From positions 1 to 47,808 of IMG/VR virus record IMGVR_UViG_2778261394_000006: a DNA stretch of 47,808 bases. One strand, 5' to 3'. This document shows, one piece after another, positions 3,610 through 16,010 of the stretch. The notes beneath the pieces are model-generated. The model made no database searches, had not been told where the DNA came from, and worked only from the letters and a program-made list of their open reading frames with translations. Positions within the stretch are counted from its first letter, which is position 1; every line of letters begins with the position of its first letter. Made by a program: the position numbers and the translations under genes. The DNA is from a virus (lineage: Duplodnaviria; Heunggongvirae; Uroviricota; Caudoviricetes).

Positions 3610-4995
3610 TTAAACACTCGCCACGTTATACCAGGTGCCGTTAATCAGTTTCTGAAGCGGTCGGTAATACACGCCGTTGACGTTATCCGCTGAATTTTTA
3701 CCAGTATCCGATATCGATATCCCTGACAATCCGTGTCCCGCAGGAGCGTGATATGTCCAGGAGATTACATTGCTGCCAGGGTTGTAATACATTTCGGAAC
3801 CATAGCGCACATCCTGCACTCCCTCTGTTCGCTGCTTATACCTTGCATCAAAGTTTCCGTAGTCTGACGGTGTTACCCTACCAGAAATGTTCATGGACCT
3901 GTTGCTTTGTAGCGTCCCGTTCTGAAAACGGAATATATGCTGGCCATTGGCATAAATATCCAGCAGGCCGTCGCCATTCTGCTTTATACCCGTATCGTTA
4001 TCCCCGAAAGCAATTGAGTTTCCGCCCAGCGCGTTCTGAACGCCGATACCCAGCGCACCATTGACCTGCGAACCACCGCCAACAGACACTTTATGCGACA
4101 TGGATATTTCGCCCGTCCGCAGATTAATAGTGAACGGGCGAAGTGGACCAATATCGCCGTTTTCGCCCTGATTTTCCCTGGTAGGAATGAGATGCAGGCA
4201 CTCTTCCGAACGACGAAAAATCAGACCAAAGGCTTCGTTGAAAATCCTCAGCGCATTAACACCACGGATTTTCAGCTCCCCGGTCATCAAATCACCAGAT
4301 TTTTTTACATATCGCAGATCAAAATCTGAATAGATATTGCCGGGGTTTATCACACTGAAATAGCTTTTCTCGCTATCAAGAAGGCAAATCAAAGGAATAC
4401 CCTTAATGATATCATTCGCTACCAGCTCGGACTTGTTCCCCTTATAAAGTGGGAACGAACCAAGAACCTTTCCGCCTAGTGTTAATTGAAGCGTCGCGGC
4501 GTTGGTATTGTTCTGAACGGGGAAAACGATAATCGGAGTTCGTAGCGTCCAATCTGTACCTCCATTAACAAAAAACGTCGAGGGAACTTCCAGCGTCAGT
4601 GCGTTTGCAGTGCCGCCAGCAACACCCGCAATATAATGACCGCTCTGAAGCTGCGCTATCTGTACGAAATAGTTTTCCGAACCACGCGTGGCAAAGTTAG
4701 CCACAACATCATTAAGGGACCAACCTTTCGCGGTTGTTCCTTCCTGCCCACGAATGACTTTCAACACATCACCGCTTACCGATACCAAATGACAAATCTC
4801 AAATGCAGACTCTTTATTATCGGTAAGCGTAATTTTTGCATAGACGCGTTGCCCGTTCGATTTATTTTCAAAATCGGCAGAAAGCAATTTTGCAAATTTA
4901 GCTCCCGTGCCCGGCATCACCGGAATATCAGTCTGAATCGTCGTAATATCACCAGCCAGTGCTGAAACAACGTTATTTCCGAATCCAAGAATCAT
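3610..4995 (-). CDS. Tail fibre protein (P2 H / Mu S-like position)
   Basis: 461 aa, Gly/Asn-rich; position between baseplate genes and Tfa. Confidence 0.7.
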   Translation of the reverse strand: MILGFGNNVVSALAGDITTIQTDIPVMPGTGAKFAKLLSADFENKSNGQRVYAKITLTDNKESAFEICHLVSVSGDVLKVIRGQEGTTAKGWSLNDVVANFATRGSENYFVQIAQLQSGHYIAGVAGGTANALTLEVPSTFFVNGGTDWTLRTPIIVFPVQNNTNAATLQLTLGGKVLGSFPLYKGNKSELVANDIIKGIPLICLLDSEKSYFSVINPGNIYSDFDLRYVKKSGDLMTGELKIRGVNALRIFNEAFGLIFRRSEECLHLIPTRENQGENGDIGPLRPFTINLRTGEISMSHKVSVGGGSQVNGALGIGVQNALGGNSIAFGDNDTGIKQNGDGLLDIYANGQHIFRFQNGTLQSNRSMNISGRVTPSDYGNFDARYKQRTEGVQDVRYGSEMYYNPGSNVISWTYHAPAGHGLSGISISDTGKNSADNVNGVYYRPLQKLINGTWYNVASV

Positions 4996-11463: not shown

Positions 11464-13542
11464 TTACCCCGGTATTTGTTGCATTCCGGCGAGTTGTGCC
11501 AGTATGTCGGAACCTGGTTTTTGTTGAACGTCGAGCCTGATTACCTGAGAAGTATTATTTGGTGAATATACGTTTCCCCGGTTCATTGCCAGCGCCCGCA
11601 TCACATCATCGCCACTTACTGCACGAGCGGCGTCCCCATTTTCATGGTTAATAATGCCCTGAATTAGCTTTCTCATTATCTCAAAATTAGAACCATCGAT
11701 TTTCTCCTTAACACCTAATCCGGTGTACTGAGAGAGATAGCTTTTATAGGACGATGTGTTATTTCCATCAGATGAAGGGGCATAAATATCAATAATCTGA
11801 TCAATCGTATTTTTGCCGCGTTTCAGGTATAGCATTACCTGCCGATCTAAGGCAGCAATGCCTTCCAGCATCGTCGGGAAGCTGGCAAAACGGGCATTTG
11901 GCCCCGATTCCAAGGTAGCCCCTTTTTGTCCTGCGAAATTAAGATTTCCGGGATTGTTATTCCTGATCCCTCTGGATAAATATGCAGATCTGTTTACTTG
12001 ATTTGAAAATCCCTGCAATCCTCCAGGCCAGACCTTACCCGGATTGTTTTTTTGCCACTCCTGCACTTCGTTAAAATAATCAAAGTTGAAACGCCCCTCC
12101 AGCCCTTTCATTTCCTCACTGGTGGTAGGTGTGTCATTTGTAGGAATAGCCAATCCAGCTACTGTTCCGGCTGTAGCCCCAAGAAGACTTCCACCAACAA
12201 CACGGGCGGCAACTCCGGTCGTTGTGGCTGCCACAGCACCAACTCTCGATGGTCCAGCAAGTACTGCGGCCCCAAAAAGCCAGGGATGTTCAACCGCAAA
12301 ACCAACAAACCCGCTAAGTGCCTTAACAACCTTTGCAACATTTTCGGCAAAATTATTCAGGTCGTTATTAAAATCCGGGCCATTTACATACTTACCAAGT
12401 TTATCCAGACCTGTTTCAACATCAGTCAAAATTCTTTTAAAGTTCTCACCGTTAAGGAAATTTAGACCAGCATTCTTTACACCATTAGATATTCTAATTA
12501 GCTGTACAGAGTTACCCGACATTGCCCCCTGAAATCCGCTGGTAAGTTGATCCCAGTTATTTTCTAAGTTGCTGGTAAGATTCTGATACTGGCTTGTATG
12601 TCCAGAGGTGAGCAACGAGTCATTCTGAGAAGCTCGCGATAAAAACTCTTTGTTGAGTTCAGGTATTTTGTCCTGATATTTGACTAACTGGTTAGCAATA
12701 CCAAAATTTACCCATCCAAGGCCACGACCTCTGAGCATGCTCTGAGTAAGTCCGGTTCCCTCATACTCCTTTGCAAGAGCAGCAACTCTTTCTAACAATA
12801 CAGGAAGATTTTCTGCTGCCCCTTTTTTAGGATTTATCCCTAATCCAATTAGCCCGTTGTAGGCAGAATGCTGAGTGTCATTTTGCGCGGCTGCCAGTGT
12901 ATTGAGCAAATTACCAACACCGGAAAAATAAGGCGAATAAGTGCTTTCTGCCGCCTTTAACTCTCCTGGAGTTGCCTGCAATTCATCAGCATTTTTCTGT
13001 TTCTCTACAACATTACGAGCCATCATGCCAAAGCCAAACGGCCCGGCAACGCCCATAACCGCAAGTTTTGTCCCCCACGATACGGTGGTTTTAAACAGGT
13101 TGTTTAATCTCGAAGTGGTCGTCCGTAGCGTAGAATTGATCTGCTTGTAAGTTTTCAGCGTCTGTTTGGCGTTTTTCCCCAGCCCGCTGAGGTACTTATC
13201 AAACATCGTTTCGCCGCGACCTTTATAGTTGCTCACCAGCGAATCAGGTGTTTTCCCGCTGCCAACAAAGCGCCATTTTTCATCCCTTAAACGTCCATCA
13301 GTGGAAGCAGCCAGAACTGGCGCGGGTGAAGATGGTTTCCTGGGAGCCTGATTGGCTTCTCCGCCTGTGGTTGTCTGCCAAGAGCCACCTCCCGGACCGG
13401 TATTTGAAGGTATTTTAAGCGGCGTACCGGCAGGGCCAATCATCAGTCCGTTGCGATACTTTTCAAATATCGCCTCAAGCCGCCTGAGGTGTTCTTCATT
13501 AACATCCAGCGTCAGAACTGGCATCTGGTTACCAGCCATCAC
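11464..13542 (-). CDS. Tail tape measure protein
   Basis: 692 aa; Gly/Ala-rich hydrophobic segment (AVLAGPSRVGAVAATTTGVAARVVGGSLLGATAGTVAGLAI); position after chaperone ORFs. Confidence 0.65.
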   Translation of the reverse strand: MMAGNQMPVLTLDVNEEHLRRLEAIFEKYRNGLMIGPAGTPLKIPSNTGPGGGSWQTTTGGEANQAPRKPSSPAPVLAASTDGRLRDEKWRFVGSGKTPDSLVSNYKGRGETMFDKYLSGLGKNAKQTLKTYKQINSTLRTTTSRLNNLFKTTVSWGTKLAVMGVAGPFGFGMMARNVVEKQKNADELQATPGELKAAESTYSPYFSGVGNLLNTLAAAQNDTQHSAYNGLIGLGINPKKGAAENLPVLLERVAALAKEYEGTGLTQSMLRGRGLGWVNFGIANQLVKYQDKIPELNKEFLSRASQNDSLLTSGHTSQYQNLTSNLENNWDQLTSGFQGAMSGNSVQLIRISNGVKNAGLNFLNGENFKRILTDVETGLDKLGKYVNGPDFNNDLNNFAENVAKVVKALSGFVGFAVEHPWLFGAAVLAGPSRVGAVAATTTGVAARVVGGSLLGATAGTVAGLAIPTNDTPTTSEEMKGLEGRFNFDYFNEVQEWQKNNPGKVWPGGLQGFSNQVNRSAYLSRGIRNNNPGNLNFAGQKGATLESGPNARFASFPTMLEGIAALDRQVMLYLKRGKNTIDQIIDIYAPSSDGNNTSSYKSYLSQYTGLGVKEKIDGSNFEIMRKLIQGIINHENGDAARAVSGDDVMRALAMNRGNVYSPNNTSQVIRLDVQQKPGSDILAQLAGMQQIPG

Positions 13543-13832
13543 AATACTCCTGCGGGATTTTTGAATTTGAGCAGCTCACGAAACTGAGCTGCTGTTTTTA
13601 CATTTAGGCCGGAATCTGCACAGATGTCTCTGAATCCGGCTCCGGCTGAGTAGTCGAGGATGTCGCTGATGACGTGTTCGCCGTCGCGCCAGAACTGGCG
13701 GCTGATTTCAATGTCGGCAATGAAGCGATCCATTCCGTAAGATTCAATAACGAGCATTGAGTGCTCCATACTCCATTGACCACATCCATAGTCCCCTTCG
13801 CCTGCTCCGGTGAATTTATCGACGAGACGCAT
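13539..13832 (-). CDS. Tail assembly chaperone -1 frame extension (E'/T-like), probably expressed by frameshift from the upstream ORF
   Basis: 97-codon ORF in -1 frame relative to 13604..14221; frame opens exactly at a T8 run; no Shine-Dalgarno before its ATG. Confidence 0.45.
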   Translation of the reverse strand: MRLVDKFTGAGEGDYGCGQWSMEHSMLVIESYGMDRFIADIEISRQFWRDGEHVISDILDYSAGAGFRDICADSGLNVKTAAQFRELLKFKNPAGVL

Positions 13833-14221
13833 GTAAAAAAAATGAGCTCACCCGCCACTTCATCCAAATCAATGATTTCACGCTCCAGCGCCATATCGAG
13901 AGGGATTGTGTCGTAGCCTTTACCCTCCACTGGGTAAACAAGGTTTGCCAGGCGAATGACCTCATTAACAAGTGTATTACGGACCCCTTTATCACCTTCC
14001 CAGATATTAGAATCACGCGAGATCCGCTCCAGCATCAAAAAAGCGATACGCGGACCCGCAACGACGCCAAGACCTTCTGAAAAAATGGCAGAAAAAGTTT
14101 TACTCAGAATGAAGAAATGCTCTTTAAACACCTCTTTGCTGATCGGCGTGGCATGGATCCAGCCATTACCCTTTTCTGTCCGGACAGGAATAATCAGGTT
14201 TAAATTTCGCGCGATTTTCAT
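13604..14221 (-). CDS. Tail assembly chaperone (G/E-like)
   Basis: ORF between tube and tape-measure genes; ATGA overlap with tube stop; contains slippery T8 at 13835-13842. Confidence 0.5.
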   Translation of the reverse strand: MKIARNLNLIIPVRTEKGNGWIHATPISKEVFKEHFFILSKTFSAIFSEGLGVVAGPRIAFLMLERISRDSNIWEGDKGVRNTLVNEVIRLANLVYPVEGKGYDTIPLDMALEREIIDLDEVAGELIFFTCVSSINSPEQAKGTMDVVNGVWSTQCSLLNLTEWIASLPTLKSAASSGATANTSSATSSTTQPEPDSETSVQIPA

Positions 14222-14661
14222 ACCAGATCCCACATTTCAGAGTTGATGTAATACGTACCAGTAATGGTGATGGCCACACCCGGCTCGCCCCCGGCGAAGG
14301 TCATATCCTGCACGTTGGTGATCGCCGTGTTATAGATATCGAAGTCACCGAACACCGTGCTGTCGCTATACACTTTTGCGTCGCCGATCGTGGCATTCTT
14401 TTCCCATTGCGCCTTGAATTGTTTTCCCAGCGCCTGGCTACGCAGCAGATGAACACGCGCCTGTAAAATCATGTATGGCTGCGGCGACTGCACGGCTCCC
14501 GTCATAGCGGGTAAAAACTCCGTGATATTGCCCTGAAAGGACAATTCGACGCCTTCTTTTGCCAGAAATGAGGCGGACACATTCAGTTCAGAATGGGAGG
14601 TGAATTTAACGCTGGCGCGAACCCGGTTAAGGGTGCCAACGGGGATCATTGGATTAGGCAC
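14218..14661 (-). CDS. Putative tail tube protein
   Basis: 147 aa; follows the sheath-sized gene. Confidence 0.5.
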   Translation of the reverse strand: MPNPMIPVGTLNRVRASVKFTSHSELNVSASFLAKEGVELSFQGNITEFLPAMTGAVQSPQPYMILQARVHLLRSQALGKQFKAQWEKNATIGDAKVYSDSTVFGDFDIYNTAITNVQDMTFAGGEPGVAITITGTYYINSEMWDLV

Positions 14662-14672
14662 GGTTCAGTCCC

Positions 14673-16010
14673 TCACGAAAGCTGCATTGTCACATTGATG
14701 TTAAAAATGATTTCGACAAATCCGCGCATCGGCGTATAGGAGGCCGAAAGGCCTGCATAACGCCCGATACCGTAATCATTGGGATTAGTGTTGATATACT
14801 GGCGGAAAGGCACTGCATCGACGACAGGCTGACCGTTGACCAGGCCGTAAGATACGCCCGTATTGAACACCGCCTGTGCGACCTGCTGTAGACGGTCGAT
14901 CCCGTCCTGGTTGTAGTAAAGCGGGTTAATTGAGTTATTGCTGCCGTTGATCACCGTGTTGGCGAGCTGCATATCGACATTAATCTGCACCCAGTCCACG
15001 GAATACCAGTACGTCATATCGTTACCGTCACTGGTAACGCCTTTCACCAGAATCGTGTTGGAAATTCCCCCCTCAGCCCCCGTGTCGACGTAGTTAATAT
15101 TCTGCTTCGTCATCGTGACCAGAATTGAATTTTTGCCCTTGTGGGCGTTTACCGCCTGTAGATAGCGAAATGCCATCGGCGGCACCTTGTTGATTTCTGA
15201 AGGTGATGCGGAAACATAGTTCCACATTACGGCTGCTGCCGCGTTTGTCGCCGGATACGTATCATCCGCCGTTGCAATAACCGACTTAATACCGGCATAA
15301 GGCGAAACGTAATTCGTGTCGTCCGGCGTTTTCGTCAGCACGAAGAAATACTGCATCGCTTCGTTGGCGGTGTGGAGTTTTGCCAGACTGATAAACTCTG
15401 CGTCACCATCCCACGGCTGCGGCACCAGATACGCATAAAAACGCAGGAGCGGATCTTCCATATAAGCTTTCAGTGCAGCGATTTCCTTACTGACTCCACC
15501 TTTCTGTACTCCCAGCTCCAGCAGGTAAATCCCAACTGAATTTCCCTGGGCAAAAAACGTGTTTACTGCCGTCACCAGATTTTCACTGCCAACAATGGAA
15601 AACTGCCCCAGTGTCACTGGCGAACCGGAAAGCTGAGAATCAGCAATCGTCCAGGTCAGTGTTTTTTCATCCGTGACGGTAGCAGTATATTCGCCATTCC
15701 ACGCGTCGGGCGAACACCCGGAAACAACAATTTTCACCTCAGAACTGTTTTCGCGTCGGATGTTGCTCCCTTCCGGAAGCGTCATCGTAACGGTGACGTT
15801 TGCCGCAGATTTTCCTGCGGCAGCCGCCGACAACGCAGCAATCGGATTTCTTACCAGATCGTTAATATCCTGATTACGGGTGAGTAATACAGGCTTTCCC
15901 GGCTCATGAGTCGTGGAGCCAAACGAGAGAACAGCGGACATCTGCTGCAAATTCGAGGGAATGGCCCCGATGGTCTGGGACACATTCACCGTGACGATAT
16001 TAAACCCCAT
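14673..16010 (-). CDS. Putative tail sheath protein
   Basis: 445 aa; position before tube/chaperone/tape measure implies a contractile tail. Confidence 0.5.
   Translation of the reverse strand: MGFNIVTVNVSQTIGAIPSNLQQMSAVLSFGSTTHEPGKPVLLTRNQDINDLVRNPIAALSAAAAGKSAANVTVTMTLPEGSNIRRENSSEVKIVVSGCSPDAWNGEYTATVTDEKTLTWTIADSQLSGSPVTLGQFSIVGSENLVTAVNTFFAQGNSVGIYLLELGVQKGGVSKEIAALKAYMEDPLLRFYAYLVPQPWDGDAEFISLAKLHTANEAMQYFFVLTKTPDDTNYVSPYAGIKSVIATADDTYPATNAAAAVMWNYVSASPSEINKVPPMAFRYLQAVNAHKGKNSILVTMTKQNINYVDTGAEGGISNTILVKGVTSDGNDMTYWYSVDWVQINVDMQLANTVINGSNNSINPLYYNQDGIDRLQQVAQAVFNTGVSYGLVNGQPVVDAVPFRQYINTNPNDYGIGRYAGLSASYTPMRGFVEIIFNINVTMQLS

What the first reader, a model, noticed from the sequence alone, without database searches (positions are those of the whole stretch)
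13539..14221. Probable programmed -1 frameshift in the tail assembly chaperone at a T8 slippery run
Between the tube and tape-measure genes, the ORF 13604-14221 is overlapped by a second frame (13539-13832). That second frame becomes open exactly at a TTTTTTTT run (13835-13842, minus strand), has no ribosome-binding site of its own, and ends 3 nt before the tape-measure start. A -1 slip would fuse about 130 N-terminal residues to the 97-residue extension, as in lambda G/GT or P2 E/E'. The zero-frame product here continues 76 codons past the slip site, which is longer than in the classical cases.
Basis: partly seen in the sequence, partly recalled or inferred. Interest (0 to 1): 0.45.

Follow-up and report, generated by a model that had tools for sequence, protein, structure and literature searches.

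The report
Frameshifted tail chaperone with long overlap
A prophage gene between the tail tube and tape-measure genes almost certainly makes two proteins by a programmed backward ribosome slip on a run of Ts, as in many phages, but here the two reading frames overlap for an unusually long 76 codons and both look functional.

Summary
On the minus strand, ORF 14221-13604 (205 aa) holds an in-phase T_TTT_TTT heptamer (13841-13835, inside a T8 run). The -1 frame opens two codons upstream of the run. It has no ribosome-binding site. It runs 98 codons to a TGA that overlaps the tape-measure ATG.

Comparative evidence supports a programmed -1 frameshift. The slippery codons are kept at synonymous sites in 86 related loci and in nine relatives of only about 28-43% identity, including isolated myophages. 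The -1 ORF is under purifying selection, lacks a conserved start codon, and always ends at the tape-measure start. No record annotates the slippage, and no Pfam, NCBIfam or PDB sequence match exists.

The unusual part is the overlap. The zero-frame protein is one confidently predicted fold (residues 8-168), and the slip site lies inside one of its helices. The zero frame stays open for a median of 59 codons after the site across the family. It ends in a conserved [IVL]-P-x C-terminus.

So the shift switches between two alternative C-terminal modules across 228 nt of dual coding, against an average of 26 nt in annotated tail chaperones. No frameshift product has been shown experimentally. I rate it a new variant of a known kind.

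The parts
13604..14221 (-). Zero-frame ORF (205 aa) of the putative tail assembly chaperone. Its ATG 14221 overlaps the upstream gene's TGA (ATGA). Stop is TAA 13606-13604.
   Evidence: It belongs to phrog_11810, 'unknown function'. There are 694 homologous 50%-identity clusters. AlphaFold mean pLDDT is 90, with one fold over residues 8-168 and a disordered tail from 170 to 205.
13835..13842 (-). T8 run that contains the in-phase slippery heptamer T_TTT_TTT (13841-13835). The zero-frame codons are ATT TTT TTT.
   Evidence: T8 is present in 83 of 86 loci, T9 in 2, and T7C (T_TTT_TTC) in 1. TTT is used at 57 of 58 site codons, against 52% TTT elsewhere in the gene. Seven of nine distant loci keep TTT TTT and two keep only N_NNT_TTT. 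All 16 Phe codons at the site are TTT, against a background of about 39%. F128 and F129 are the only invariant columns among 128 homologues.
13539..13835 (-). -1 frame extension: 98 codons (TAC 13835-13833 through to TGA 13541-13539). It comprises a linker of about 27 residues and a conserved domain of about 70 residues.
   Evidence: It belongs to phrog_14324. Homologues reach down to 52% identity as a separate ORF and to 23-33% identity in distant loci. pN/pS is 0.19 for codons 47-60 and 0.34 for the non-overlapped codons 78-98.
13604..13834 (-). Dual-coding overlap: 76 zero-frame codons plus the stop, read in two frames.
   Evidence: Constraint passes from the zero frame to the -1 frame along the overlap. 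In codons 27-45 synonymous divergence is depressed in both frames, about 0.31-0.34 against 0.70 upstream. The zero frame avoids stop codons: P(open for 60 or more codons) is about 0.2 per lineage, yet all 29 representatives are open for 65 or more.
13848..13850 (-). TGA in the -1 frame that closes this frame two codons upstream of the T run.
   Evidence: Its position varies among relatives, from 2 to 131 codons upstream.
11464..13539 (-). Tape-measure gene with a C-terminal lytic-transglycosylase-like region. ATG 13539 shares its A with the -1 ORF's TGA. The SD AGGAG lies at 13551-13547.
   Evidence: PHROG hits phrog_7694 and phrog_2276, 'tail length tape measure protein'. RefSeq start as. SD pairing is -6.9 kcal/mol.
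14218..14661 (-). Putative tail tube gene (147 aa), identified by position only.
   Evidence: It lies between the sheath gene and the chaperone gene. It belongs to phrog_6566, 'unknown function'. There is no PDB sequence match.
14673..16010 (-). Tail sheath gene (445 aa).
   Evidence: phrog_205 'tail sheath', E = 3e-53.

Best explanation
The gene between the tube and tape-measure genes of this E. coli myovirus-type prophage makes two proteins from one start codon (ATG 14221).

Most ribosomes read the zero frame. This gives a 205-aa protein: a compact alpha/beta fold (residues 8-168) followed by a disordered Ser/Thr-rich tail ending in I-P-A.

A minority of ribosomes slip. With tRNA-Phe on the two UUU codons of U_UUU_UUU (13841-13835), they move back one base and continue in the -1 frame. 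This gives a 227-aa protein: residues 1-129, then a linker of about 27 residues, then a conserved domain of about 70 residues. It terminates on a TGA that overlaps the tape-measure ATG.

By analogy with lambda G/GT and P2 E/E+E', I infer three things. The shared N part binds the tape-measure protein. The -1 domain recruits the tube subunit or an initiator complex. The frameshift efficiency fixes the ratio of the two products.

This family differs from the classical cases in that the shift happens inside the fold. The two products therefore carry alternative C-terminal modules, encoded by the same 228 nt in two frames.

Shown by computation: the sequence anatomy, the conservation, the selection in both frames, and the absence of a start codon or SD for the -1 ORF. 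Inferred: that slippage occurs, that it is ribosomal, its efficiency, and the chaperone roles.
For: Anatomy:
- The heptamer is in phase, the -1 frame opens just upstream, and there is no SD.
- Gene order is sheath (phrog_205), tube, this gene, tape measure.

Conservation of the site:
- 83 of 86 loci have T8, and L079 has T_TTT_TTC, still a valid heptamer.
- 57 of 58 site Phe codons are TTT, and the preceding codon ends in TT in all 29 representatives. Elsewhere in the gene the ratio is 68 TTT: 62 TTC.
- Nine relatives with zero-frame proteins of about 28-43% identity all have T_TTT at this place. Six have the full in-phase T_TTT_TTT, including one in a 66% GC contig. These relatives include Pantoea phage PdC23 and Yersinia phage vB_YenM_21.09, a contractile-tailed phage by EM (PMC9224151). 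All 16 of 16 site Phe codons are TTT, against a background of about 39%.
- F128 and F129 are the only invariant columns in 128 homologues.

The -1 ORF codes for protein:
- pN/pS is 0.19-0.42 from codon 47 onward, and 0.34 in the part that does not overlap the zero frame.
- Conserved blocks persist across distant loci.
- Three near relatives lack the ATG. Most distant relatives have no ATG before the conserved domain, and where one occurs it is not at a conserved position.
- In every locus with a called downstream tape-measure-position gene, the -1 ORF ends within about 10 nt of that gene's start, while the zero frame ends 60-160 nt earlier.

Two T9 contigs encode exactly the predicted fusion as one ORF.

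Literature: G-T type frameshifting is conserved among long-tailed dsDNA phages (PMC5009743).
Against: - No protein or RNA data exist, so the fusion is unobserved.
- No conserved downstream stem-loop or pseudoknot was found (z = 0.2; consensus -0.78 kcal/mol).
- No consistent upstream SD-like stimulator was found.
- U_UUU_UUU is less shift-prone than A_AAA_AAG in E. coli (PMC5009743).
- The slip site lies inside helix 119-135 of a single predicted fold. The fusion would lack about 40 residues of that fold, and it is unclear how it would fold.
- An ATG directly after the run is kept in 83 of 86 near relatives.
- Two distant relatives have only a T_TTT tetramer.
Confidence: 0.85

Rival explanations
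1. Transcriptional slippage. RNA polymerase adds one U on the T8 template run, and ordinary translation of the U9 transcripts gives the same 227-aa fusion.
For: The run is 8 long in 83 of 86 near relatives. A T9 DNA variant gives exactly the fusion ORF. Slippage on A/T runs is documented in bacteria (PMC5009743). The protein product would be identical, so sequence alone cannot separate the two mechanisms.
Against: Documented bacterial cases use runs of about 9 (PMC5009743). The eighth T follows from the Val/Ile codon (GTT/ATT) placed before the heptamer. L079 has T7C. Distant relatives have T7, T6 or only T4 at the homologous site, and they still keep the -1 ORF. What is conserved is the phase of the T codons, not the length of the run.
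Confidence: 0.08
2. The -1 ORF is a separate 97-aa gene, translated from its own ATG at 13832 without any frameshift.
For: The ATG at 13832 is present in 83 of 86 near relatives. Gene callers have called it as a 97-aa protein, phrog_14324.
Against: There is no SD: -2.8 kcal/mol, which is background level. The ATG is accounted for by the conserved zero-frame Thr-Cys codons (ACA TGY). It is missing in L007, L084 and L086. Most distant relatives have no ATG before the conserved domain, and none is at a conserved position. The first 27 or so -1 codons show no protein-level constraint (pN/pS 0.8-2.3). This reading does not explain why the TTT TTT codons are kept.
Confidence: 0.04
3. The run is a sequencing error or a frameshift mutation in what is really one 227-aa gene, that is, an artefact or a pseudogene.
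For: Two IMG/VR contigs (L009, L065) have T9 and a single fused ORF. Homopolymers are error-prone in sequencing.
Against: The window is 100% identical to a complete E. coli genome. 83 of 86 loci and all nine distant relatives share the two-frame layout. The zero-frame continuation is part of a confidently predicted fold and is conserved across 694 clusters.
Confidence: 0.01
4. The -1 ORF is not translated, and its apparent conservation is a side effect of constraint on the zero frame.
For: Three quarters of the -1 ORF overlaps a conserved zero-frame region.
Against: The last 21 codons lie beyond the zero-frame stop and still show pN/pS of 0.34. In codons 47-60 the -1 frame is strongly constrained (0.19) while the zero frame is not (1.45). 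The -1 frame stays open up to the tape-measure start in every lineage.
Confidence: 0.01

Closest known systems
Phage lambda G / GT tail assembly chaperones (-1 shift at G_GGA_AAG)
   Same: The gene sits directly upstream of the tape-measure gene. There are two products from one start. The second frame is -1, has no start of its own, and abuts the tape-measure gene. A low-level shift sets the ratio of the products (PMC5009743).
   Different: In lambda the slip is a few codons before the G stop, so GT contains essentially all of G. Here the slip is 76 codons before the stop and lies inside the fold, so the products have alternative C-terminal modules. The slippery sequence differs (U_UUU_UUU). 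There is no sequence similarity. The host phage has a contractile tail.
Phage P2 E / E+E' (contractile-tailed phage; -1 shift on a T-rich heptamer, from my own knowledge of Christie et al. 2002)
   Same: Gene order in a myovirus is sheath, tube, chaperone, tape measure. The slippery run is T-rich. The -1 ORF lacks an RBS and reaches the tape-measure gene.
   Different: In P2 the shift is near the 3' end of a 91-aa E protein. Here the zero-frame protein has 205 aa and a 228-nt overlap. There is no detectable homology.
Annotated tail-assembly-chaperone frameshifts in SEA-PHAGES genomes (PRFect training set, PMC10885494)
   Same: It is the same class of recoding event in the same gene position.
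   Different: The mean distance from slippery site to in-frame stop is 26 nt across 2476 annotated frameshifted genes, 2397 of them tail assembly chaperones. Here it is 228 nt. In that paper's viral test set, only 2 of 43 genomes with distances over 51 nt were predicted, which may explain why this family is annotated nowhere.
HIV-1 gag / gag-pol (p6 and the transframe p6* region; from my own knowledge)
   Same: A -1 shift on a U-rich heptamer after which the zero frame continues for tens of codons. One stretch of RNA therefore encodes two different functional C-terminal segments.
   Different: It is a eukaryotic virus with a stimulatory RNA structure and unrelated proteins. It is an analogy of architecture only.
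B. subtilis YqbN / XkdN-type chaperone of PBSX-like contractile elements (PDB 3klu)
   Different: The score is at noise level and there is no sequence match. This is not evidence of homology.

Membership tests
G/GT-type tail assembly chaperone with programmed -1 frameshift | Gene lies between the major tail tube gene and the tape-measure gene | tested here: met
   The order is sheath (phrog_205), a 147-aa gene, this gene, then tape measure (phrog_2276/7694). The tube gene is identified by position only. The order is the same in nine distant loci.
G/GT-type tail assembly chaperone with programmed -1 frameshift | Second ORF is in the -1 frame, overlaps the first, and has no start codon or RBS of its own | tested here: met
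   The frame is -1. Anti-SD pairing is -2.8 kcal/mol, at background level. The ATG is absent in three near relatives. Most distant relatives have no ATG before the conserved domain, and none is at a conserved position.
G/GT-type tail assembly chaperone with programmed -1 frameshift | X_XXY_YYZ slippery heptamer in phase within the overlap | tested here: met
   T_TTT_TTT lies at 13841-13835. It is conserved at synonymous sites. Two of nine distant relatives have only T_TTT.
G/GT-type tail assembly chaperone with programmed -1 frameshift | The two-frame arrangement is conserved among relatives despite sequence divergence | tested here: met
   It is present in 84 of 86 near loci and 9 of 9 distant loci.
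G/GT-type tail assembly chaperone with programmed -1 frameshift | Frameshift ORF ends next to the tape-measure start | tested here: met
   The window has a TGATG overlap. In every distant locus with a called downstream tape-measure-position gene, the end is within about 10 nt of that gene's start.
G/GT-type tail assembly chaperone with programmed -1 frameshift | [quoted passage not shown] | tested here: not met
   The site is 228 nt (76 codons) before the stop, against a mean of 26 nt in annotated cases (PMC10885494). It lies inside helix 119-135 of a fold that extends to residue 168.
G/GT-type tail assembly chaperone with programmed -1 frameshift | Two products are detected at a fixed ratio, and both are needed for tail assembly | not testable with these tools
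   This needs proteomics or genetics.
Known chaperone protein families (Pfam Phage_TAC_*, lambda gpG, P2 gpE, XkdN) | Significant sequence match to a family model | tested here: not met
   There is no Pfam, NCBIfam or PDB sequence hit for the window proteins, for 128 homologues, or for the -1 extension. The only matches are phrog_11810 and phrog_14324, both 'unknown function'.
Known chaperone protein families (Pfam Phage_TAC_*, lambda gpG, P2 gpE, XkdN) | Fold similarity to a solved or annotated chaperone structure | tested here: inconclusive
Programmed transcriptional slippage | Long homopolymer (about 9 or more A/T) conserved as a run | tested here: not met
   The window has T8. Relatives have T7C, T7, T6 and T4 at the same site.

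The most novel reading that the evidence does not exclude
This is an unannotated, widespread family of myophage tail chaperones (phrog_11810 plus phrog_14324; 694 clusters at 50% identity). In it the -1 frameshift is a switch between two alternative, separately selected C-terminal modules, not an extension.

The slip occurs inside a helix of the zero-frame fold. A stretch of 53-100 codons is read productively in both frames. The zero-frame product carries its own conserved C-terminal docking motif (S-S-[IV]-P-x), which the fusion lacks.

If true, the short product is not simply a subset of the long one, and the lambda model of chaperone action would need amending for these phages.
Probability: 0.65. 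Interest if true: 0.6.

Novelty: new variant of a known kind. Interest (0 to 1): 0.5.

Why it matters
Tail-chaperone frameshifting is a textbook case of recoding, and its existence here is not surprising. Three things would matter if confirmed.

- A whole family of contractile-tailed phages and prophages of Enterobacterales and beyond carries it with no annotation. Current predictors penalise slip sites far from the stop codon.
- It is a natural dual-coding segment of about 60-100 codons whose constraint visibly passes from one frame to the other. That makes it a clean system for studying overlapping-gene evolution.
- The two products would share only the first 129 residues. The abundant product would keep a fold segment and a C-terminal motif that the fusion lacks. 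This contradicts the simple picture that the long product equals the short one plus an extra domain, and it points to an unknown binding partner.

Tried and rejected
- Downstream stimulatory RNA structure. The 98 nt after the site fold no better than shuffles (z = 0.2). The consensus of 19 relatives is -0.78 kcal/mol with no meaningful covariation. Rfam finds nothing in the region.
- Upstream SD-like stimulator. Anti-SD pairing 3-20 nt upstream is inconsistent across 38 sequences (median percentile 0.36). I make no claim.
- Structure of the fusion. MAFFT misaligned the permitted N-terminal fragments. I therefore modelled the -1 ORF alone, which gave pLDDT 49 and was unusable.
- Profile-based locus search with distant homologues failed because no conserved stretch was available. 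A single-protein scan with P0154 found nothing. One contig had no retrievable DNA.
- Tube gene identity could not be confirmed by sequence.
- Rejected explanations: assembly error or pseudogene, an independent 97-aa gene, and a non-coding -1 frame (see the rival explanations).
Full report
**What is there**

The window is a prophage. Over this region it is 100% identical to E. coli EC11 and 90-93% identical to Escherichia phage Rac-SA53 and to a phage deposited as Actinobacillus phage pPE4.

On the minus strand the gene order is:
- sheath, 16010-14673 (phrog_205, E = 3e-53)
- a 147-aa gene in the tube position, 14661-14218
- the ORF in question, 14221-13604
- a tape-measure gene with a lytic-transglycosylase-like end, 13539-11464

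The zero-frame codons at the run are ATT TTT TTT ACA. T_TTT_TTT (13841-13835) is therefore a canonical heptamer in phase. The -1 frame is closed by TGA 13850-13848 and then runs 98 codons to TGA 13541-13539. That TGA overlaps the tape-measure ATG (TGATG).

A -1 shift gives 129 + 98 = 227 aa. The zero frame runs on for 76 codons.

The ATG at 13832 has no Shine-Dalgarno. Its anti-SD pairing is -2.8 kcal/mol, which is background level, against mostly -5 to -8 for neighbouring genes.

No public record annotates slippage here.

**Is it programmed?**

I collected 85 related loci from genomes and IMG/VR, using the -1 ORF as bait.

- With the window, 83 of 86 have T8.
- L079 has T_TTT_TTC, still a valid heptamer.
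- L009 and L065 have T9, which makes one continuous ORF identical to the predicted fusion.

In 29 representatives below 95% nucleotide identity:
- 57 of 58 site Phe codons are TTT.
- The preceding codon is GTT or ATT in all.
- Other Phe codons of the same gene are 68 TTT: 62 TTC.

Synonymous divergence upstream of the site is high (pS = 0.70), so this conservation is not due to lack of time.

A whole-library search found 694 homologous clusters at 50% identity. In an alignment of 128 of them, the only invariant columns are F128 and F129.

I fetched DNA for nine relatives whose zero-frame proteins are about 28-43% identical to the window's. They include Pantoea phage PdC23 (genus Certevirus) and Yersinia phage vB_YenM_21.09, which has a contractile tail by EM (PMC9224151).

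- All nine have T_TTT at the homologous place.
- Six have the full in-phase T_TTT_TTT, one of them in a 66% GC contig.
- All 16 of 16 site Phe codons are TTT, against a background of about 39%.
- All nine have a homologous -1 ORF of 98-156 codons. It is open from the site and has no conserved ATG.
- Wherever a downstream tape-measure-position gene is called, the -1 ORF ends within about 10 nt of its start.

**Is the -1 frame translated?**

- The -1 product is conserved as protein.
- pN/pS is 0.19 in codons 47-60.
- pN/pS is 0.34 in the 21 codons that lie beyond the zero-frame stop.
- The first 27 or so -1 codons show no constraint in that frame (0.8-2.3), as expected for a linker.
- Three near relatives replace the ATG by CTG.

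Taken together, independent initiation, an untranslated frame, and an assembly error are all poor fits.

**Ribosomal or transcriptional slippage?**

The products would be identical, so the window alone cannot decide. Runs of about 9 are the documented substrate for transcriptional slippage in bacteria (PMC5009743).

In this family the phase of the T codons is conserved, not the run length. The run is T8, T7C, T7, T6 or T4 in different lineages. The eighth T in the window follows from a Val/Ile codon.

I therefore favour ribosomal -1 slippage. I leave about 8% for a transcriptional contribution.

No stimulator was found:
- Folding downstream is no better than shuffles.
- There is no consensus structure.
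- Upstream SD-like pairing is inconsistent.

U_UUU_UUU is only modestly shift-prone in E. coli (PMC5009743). That would suit a low ratio of the lambda type.

**The unusual part**

The zero-frame continuation is not a by-product.

- AlphaFold, run on a 128-sequence alignment, gives mean pLDDT 90 and one fold over residues 8-168. The secondary-structure elements after the slip site include helix 138-152, strand 155-157 and helix 161-167.
- The slip site (FF128-129) sits inside helix 119-135. Residues 170-205 are disordered.
- Across 150 cluster representatives, the zero frame runs a median of 59 residues past FF (5th-95th percentile 53-88).
- 83 of 150 end in [IVL]-P-x, typically S-S-[IV]-P-[SHY]. 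The background frequency is 1.5%.
- That C-terminal motif falls at different places relative to the -1 motifs in different lineages. It is therefore selected in its own frame.

I resampled synonymous codons of the -1 protein. This leaves the zero frame open for 60 codons in only about 20% of trials per lineage. Yet all 29 representatives are open for 65 or more. The lineages are not independent, so this is suggestive rather than a formal P value.

Constraint passes from one frame to the other along the overlap:

| Zero-frame codons after the slip | Zero-frame pN/pS | -1 frame pN/pS |
|---|---|---|
| 1-8 | 0.28 | 2.3 |
| 27-45 | about 0.6 | about 0.6 |
| 46-59 | 1.45 | 0.19 |

In codons 27-45, pS is depressed to 0.31-0.34 in both frames.

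Length insertions occur at the same place in both frames. That place is the disordered zero-frame tail and the loop between two conserved -1 blocks.

**Comparison with what is known**

Mechanism, gene order and the abutment on the tape-measure gene match lambda G/GT and P2 E/E+E' (PMC5009743).

The family differs in two respects.
- The slippery site is 228 nt from the in-frame stop. The mean is 26 nt across 2476 annotated frameshifted genes, 2397 of them tail assembly chaperones, and the predictor built on them rarely finds sites beyond 51 nt (PMC10885494).
- The long product would not contain the whole short one.

There is no sequence link to any chaperone family. Structural resemblance is only at noise level. 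So it works like a G/GT chaperone, but I cannot file it in a known protein family.

**Verdict**

It is a new variant of a known kind. The existence of the frameshift is ordinary. The long, doubly constrained overlap with alternative C-terminal modules is not.

Noticed in passing
L009 3990-3998 and L065 3990-3998 (IMG/VR contigs UViG_2896595138_000001 and UViG_2917413769_000001): These two relatives carry T9 instead of T8. The N part and the -1 extension then form one continuous ORF identical to the predicted fusion. Protein P0140 (139 aa) looks like a T7 variant. The variants could be homopolymer sequencing errors or natural length variants.
   Followed up: partly
zero-frame C-terminus, window 13604-13620 (minus strand), and 150 homologues: The zero-frame protein family ends in a conserved S-S-[IV]-P-x motif after a Ser/Thr/Ala/Pro-rich tail of variable length. 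83 of 150 representatives end in [IVL]-P-x, against a 1.5% background. The binding partner is unknown.
   Followed up: partly
window 13809-13834 (minus strand): The 25 or so nt directly 3' of the T run (ACATGYGTCTCGTCGATAAACAA) are almost invariant in relatives of only about 65-70% overall identity. No RNA structure is predicted there. Zero-frame protein constraint explains part of this.
   Followed up: partly
window 14218-14221 and 13537-13541: There are stop/start overlaps on both sides of the gene. The tube-position gene's stop and the chaperone's start form ATGA. The -1 ORF's stop and the tape-measure start form TGATG. This suggests translational coupling along the tail operon.
   Followed up: no
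GenBank PP818812.1 (L001): A phage deposited as Actinobacillus pleuropneumoniae phage vB_Apl-pPE4 is 92.9% identical over 1.3 kb to this E. coli prophage, and its gene order is the same. The host assignment looks doubtful.
   Followed up: no
L004 (Yersinia similis Y228) about 3957-3998: In this relative the zero frame is open for only 14 codons upstream of the slip site, so the N part appears interrupted. This may be a decaying prophage copy.
   Followed up: no
window 46074-46252 (-) and 32682-32857 (-): Rfam finds a RalA sRNA (RalR antitoxin) and a sok antitoxin RNA. The prophage therefore combines Rac-like early or accessory regions with a myovirus-type tail module.
   Followed up: no
window 11464-13539 (-): The C-terminal third of the tape-measure protein matches endolysin and transglycosylase PHROGs. 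Some relatives carry a VanY peptidase domain there instead (L089).
   Followed up: no
window 42162-42170 (+): An A9 run, the longest homopolymer in the window, lies just upstream of the 891-aa ORF at 42323-44998. I did not examine it.
   Followed up: no
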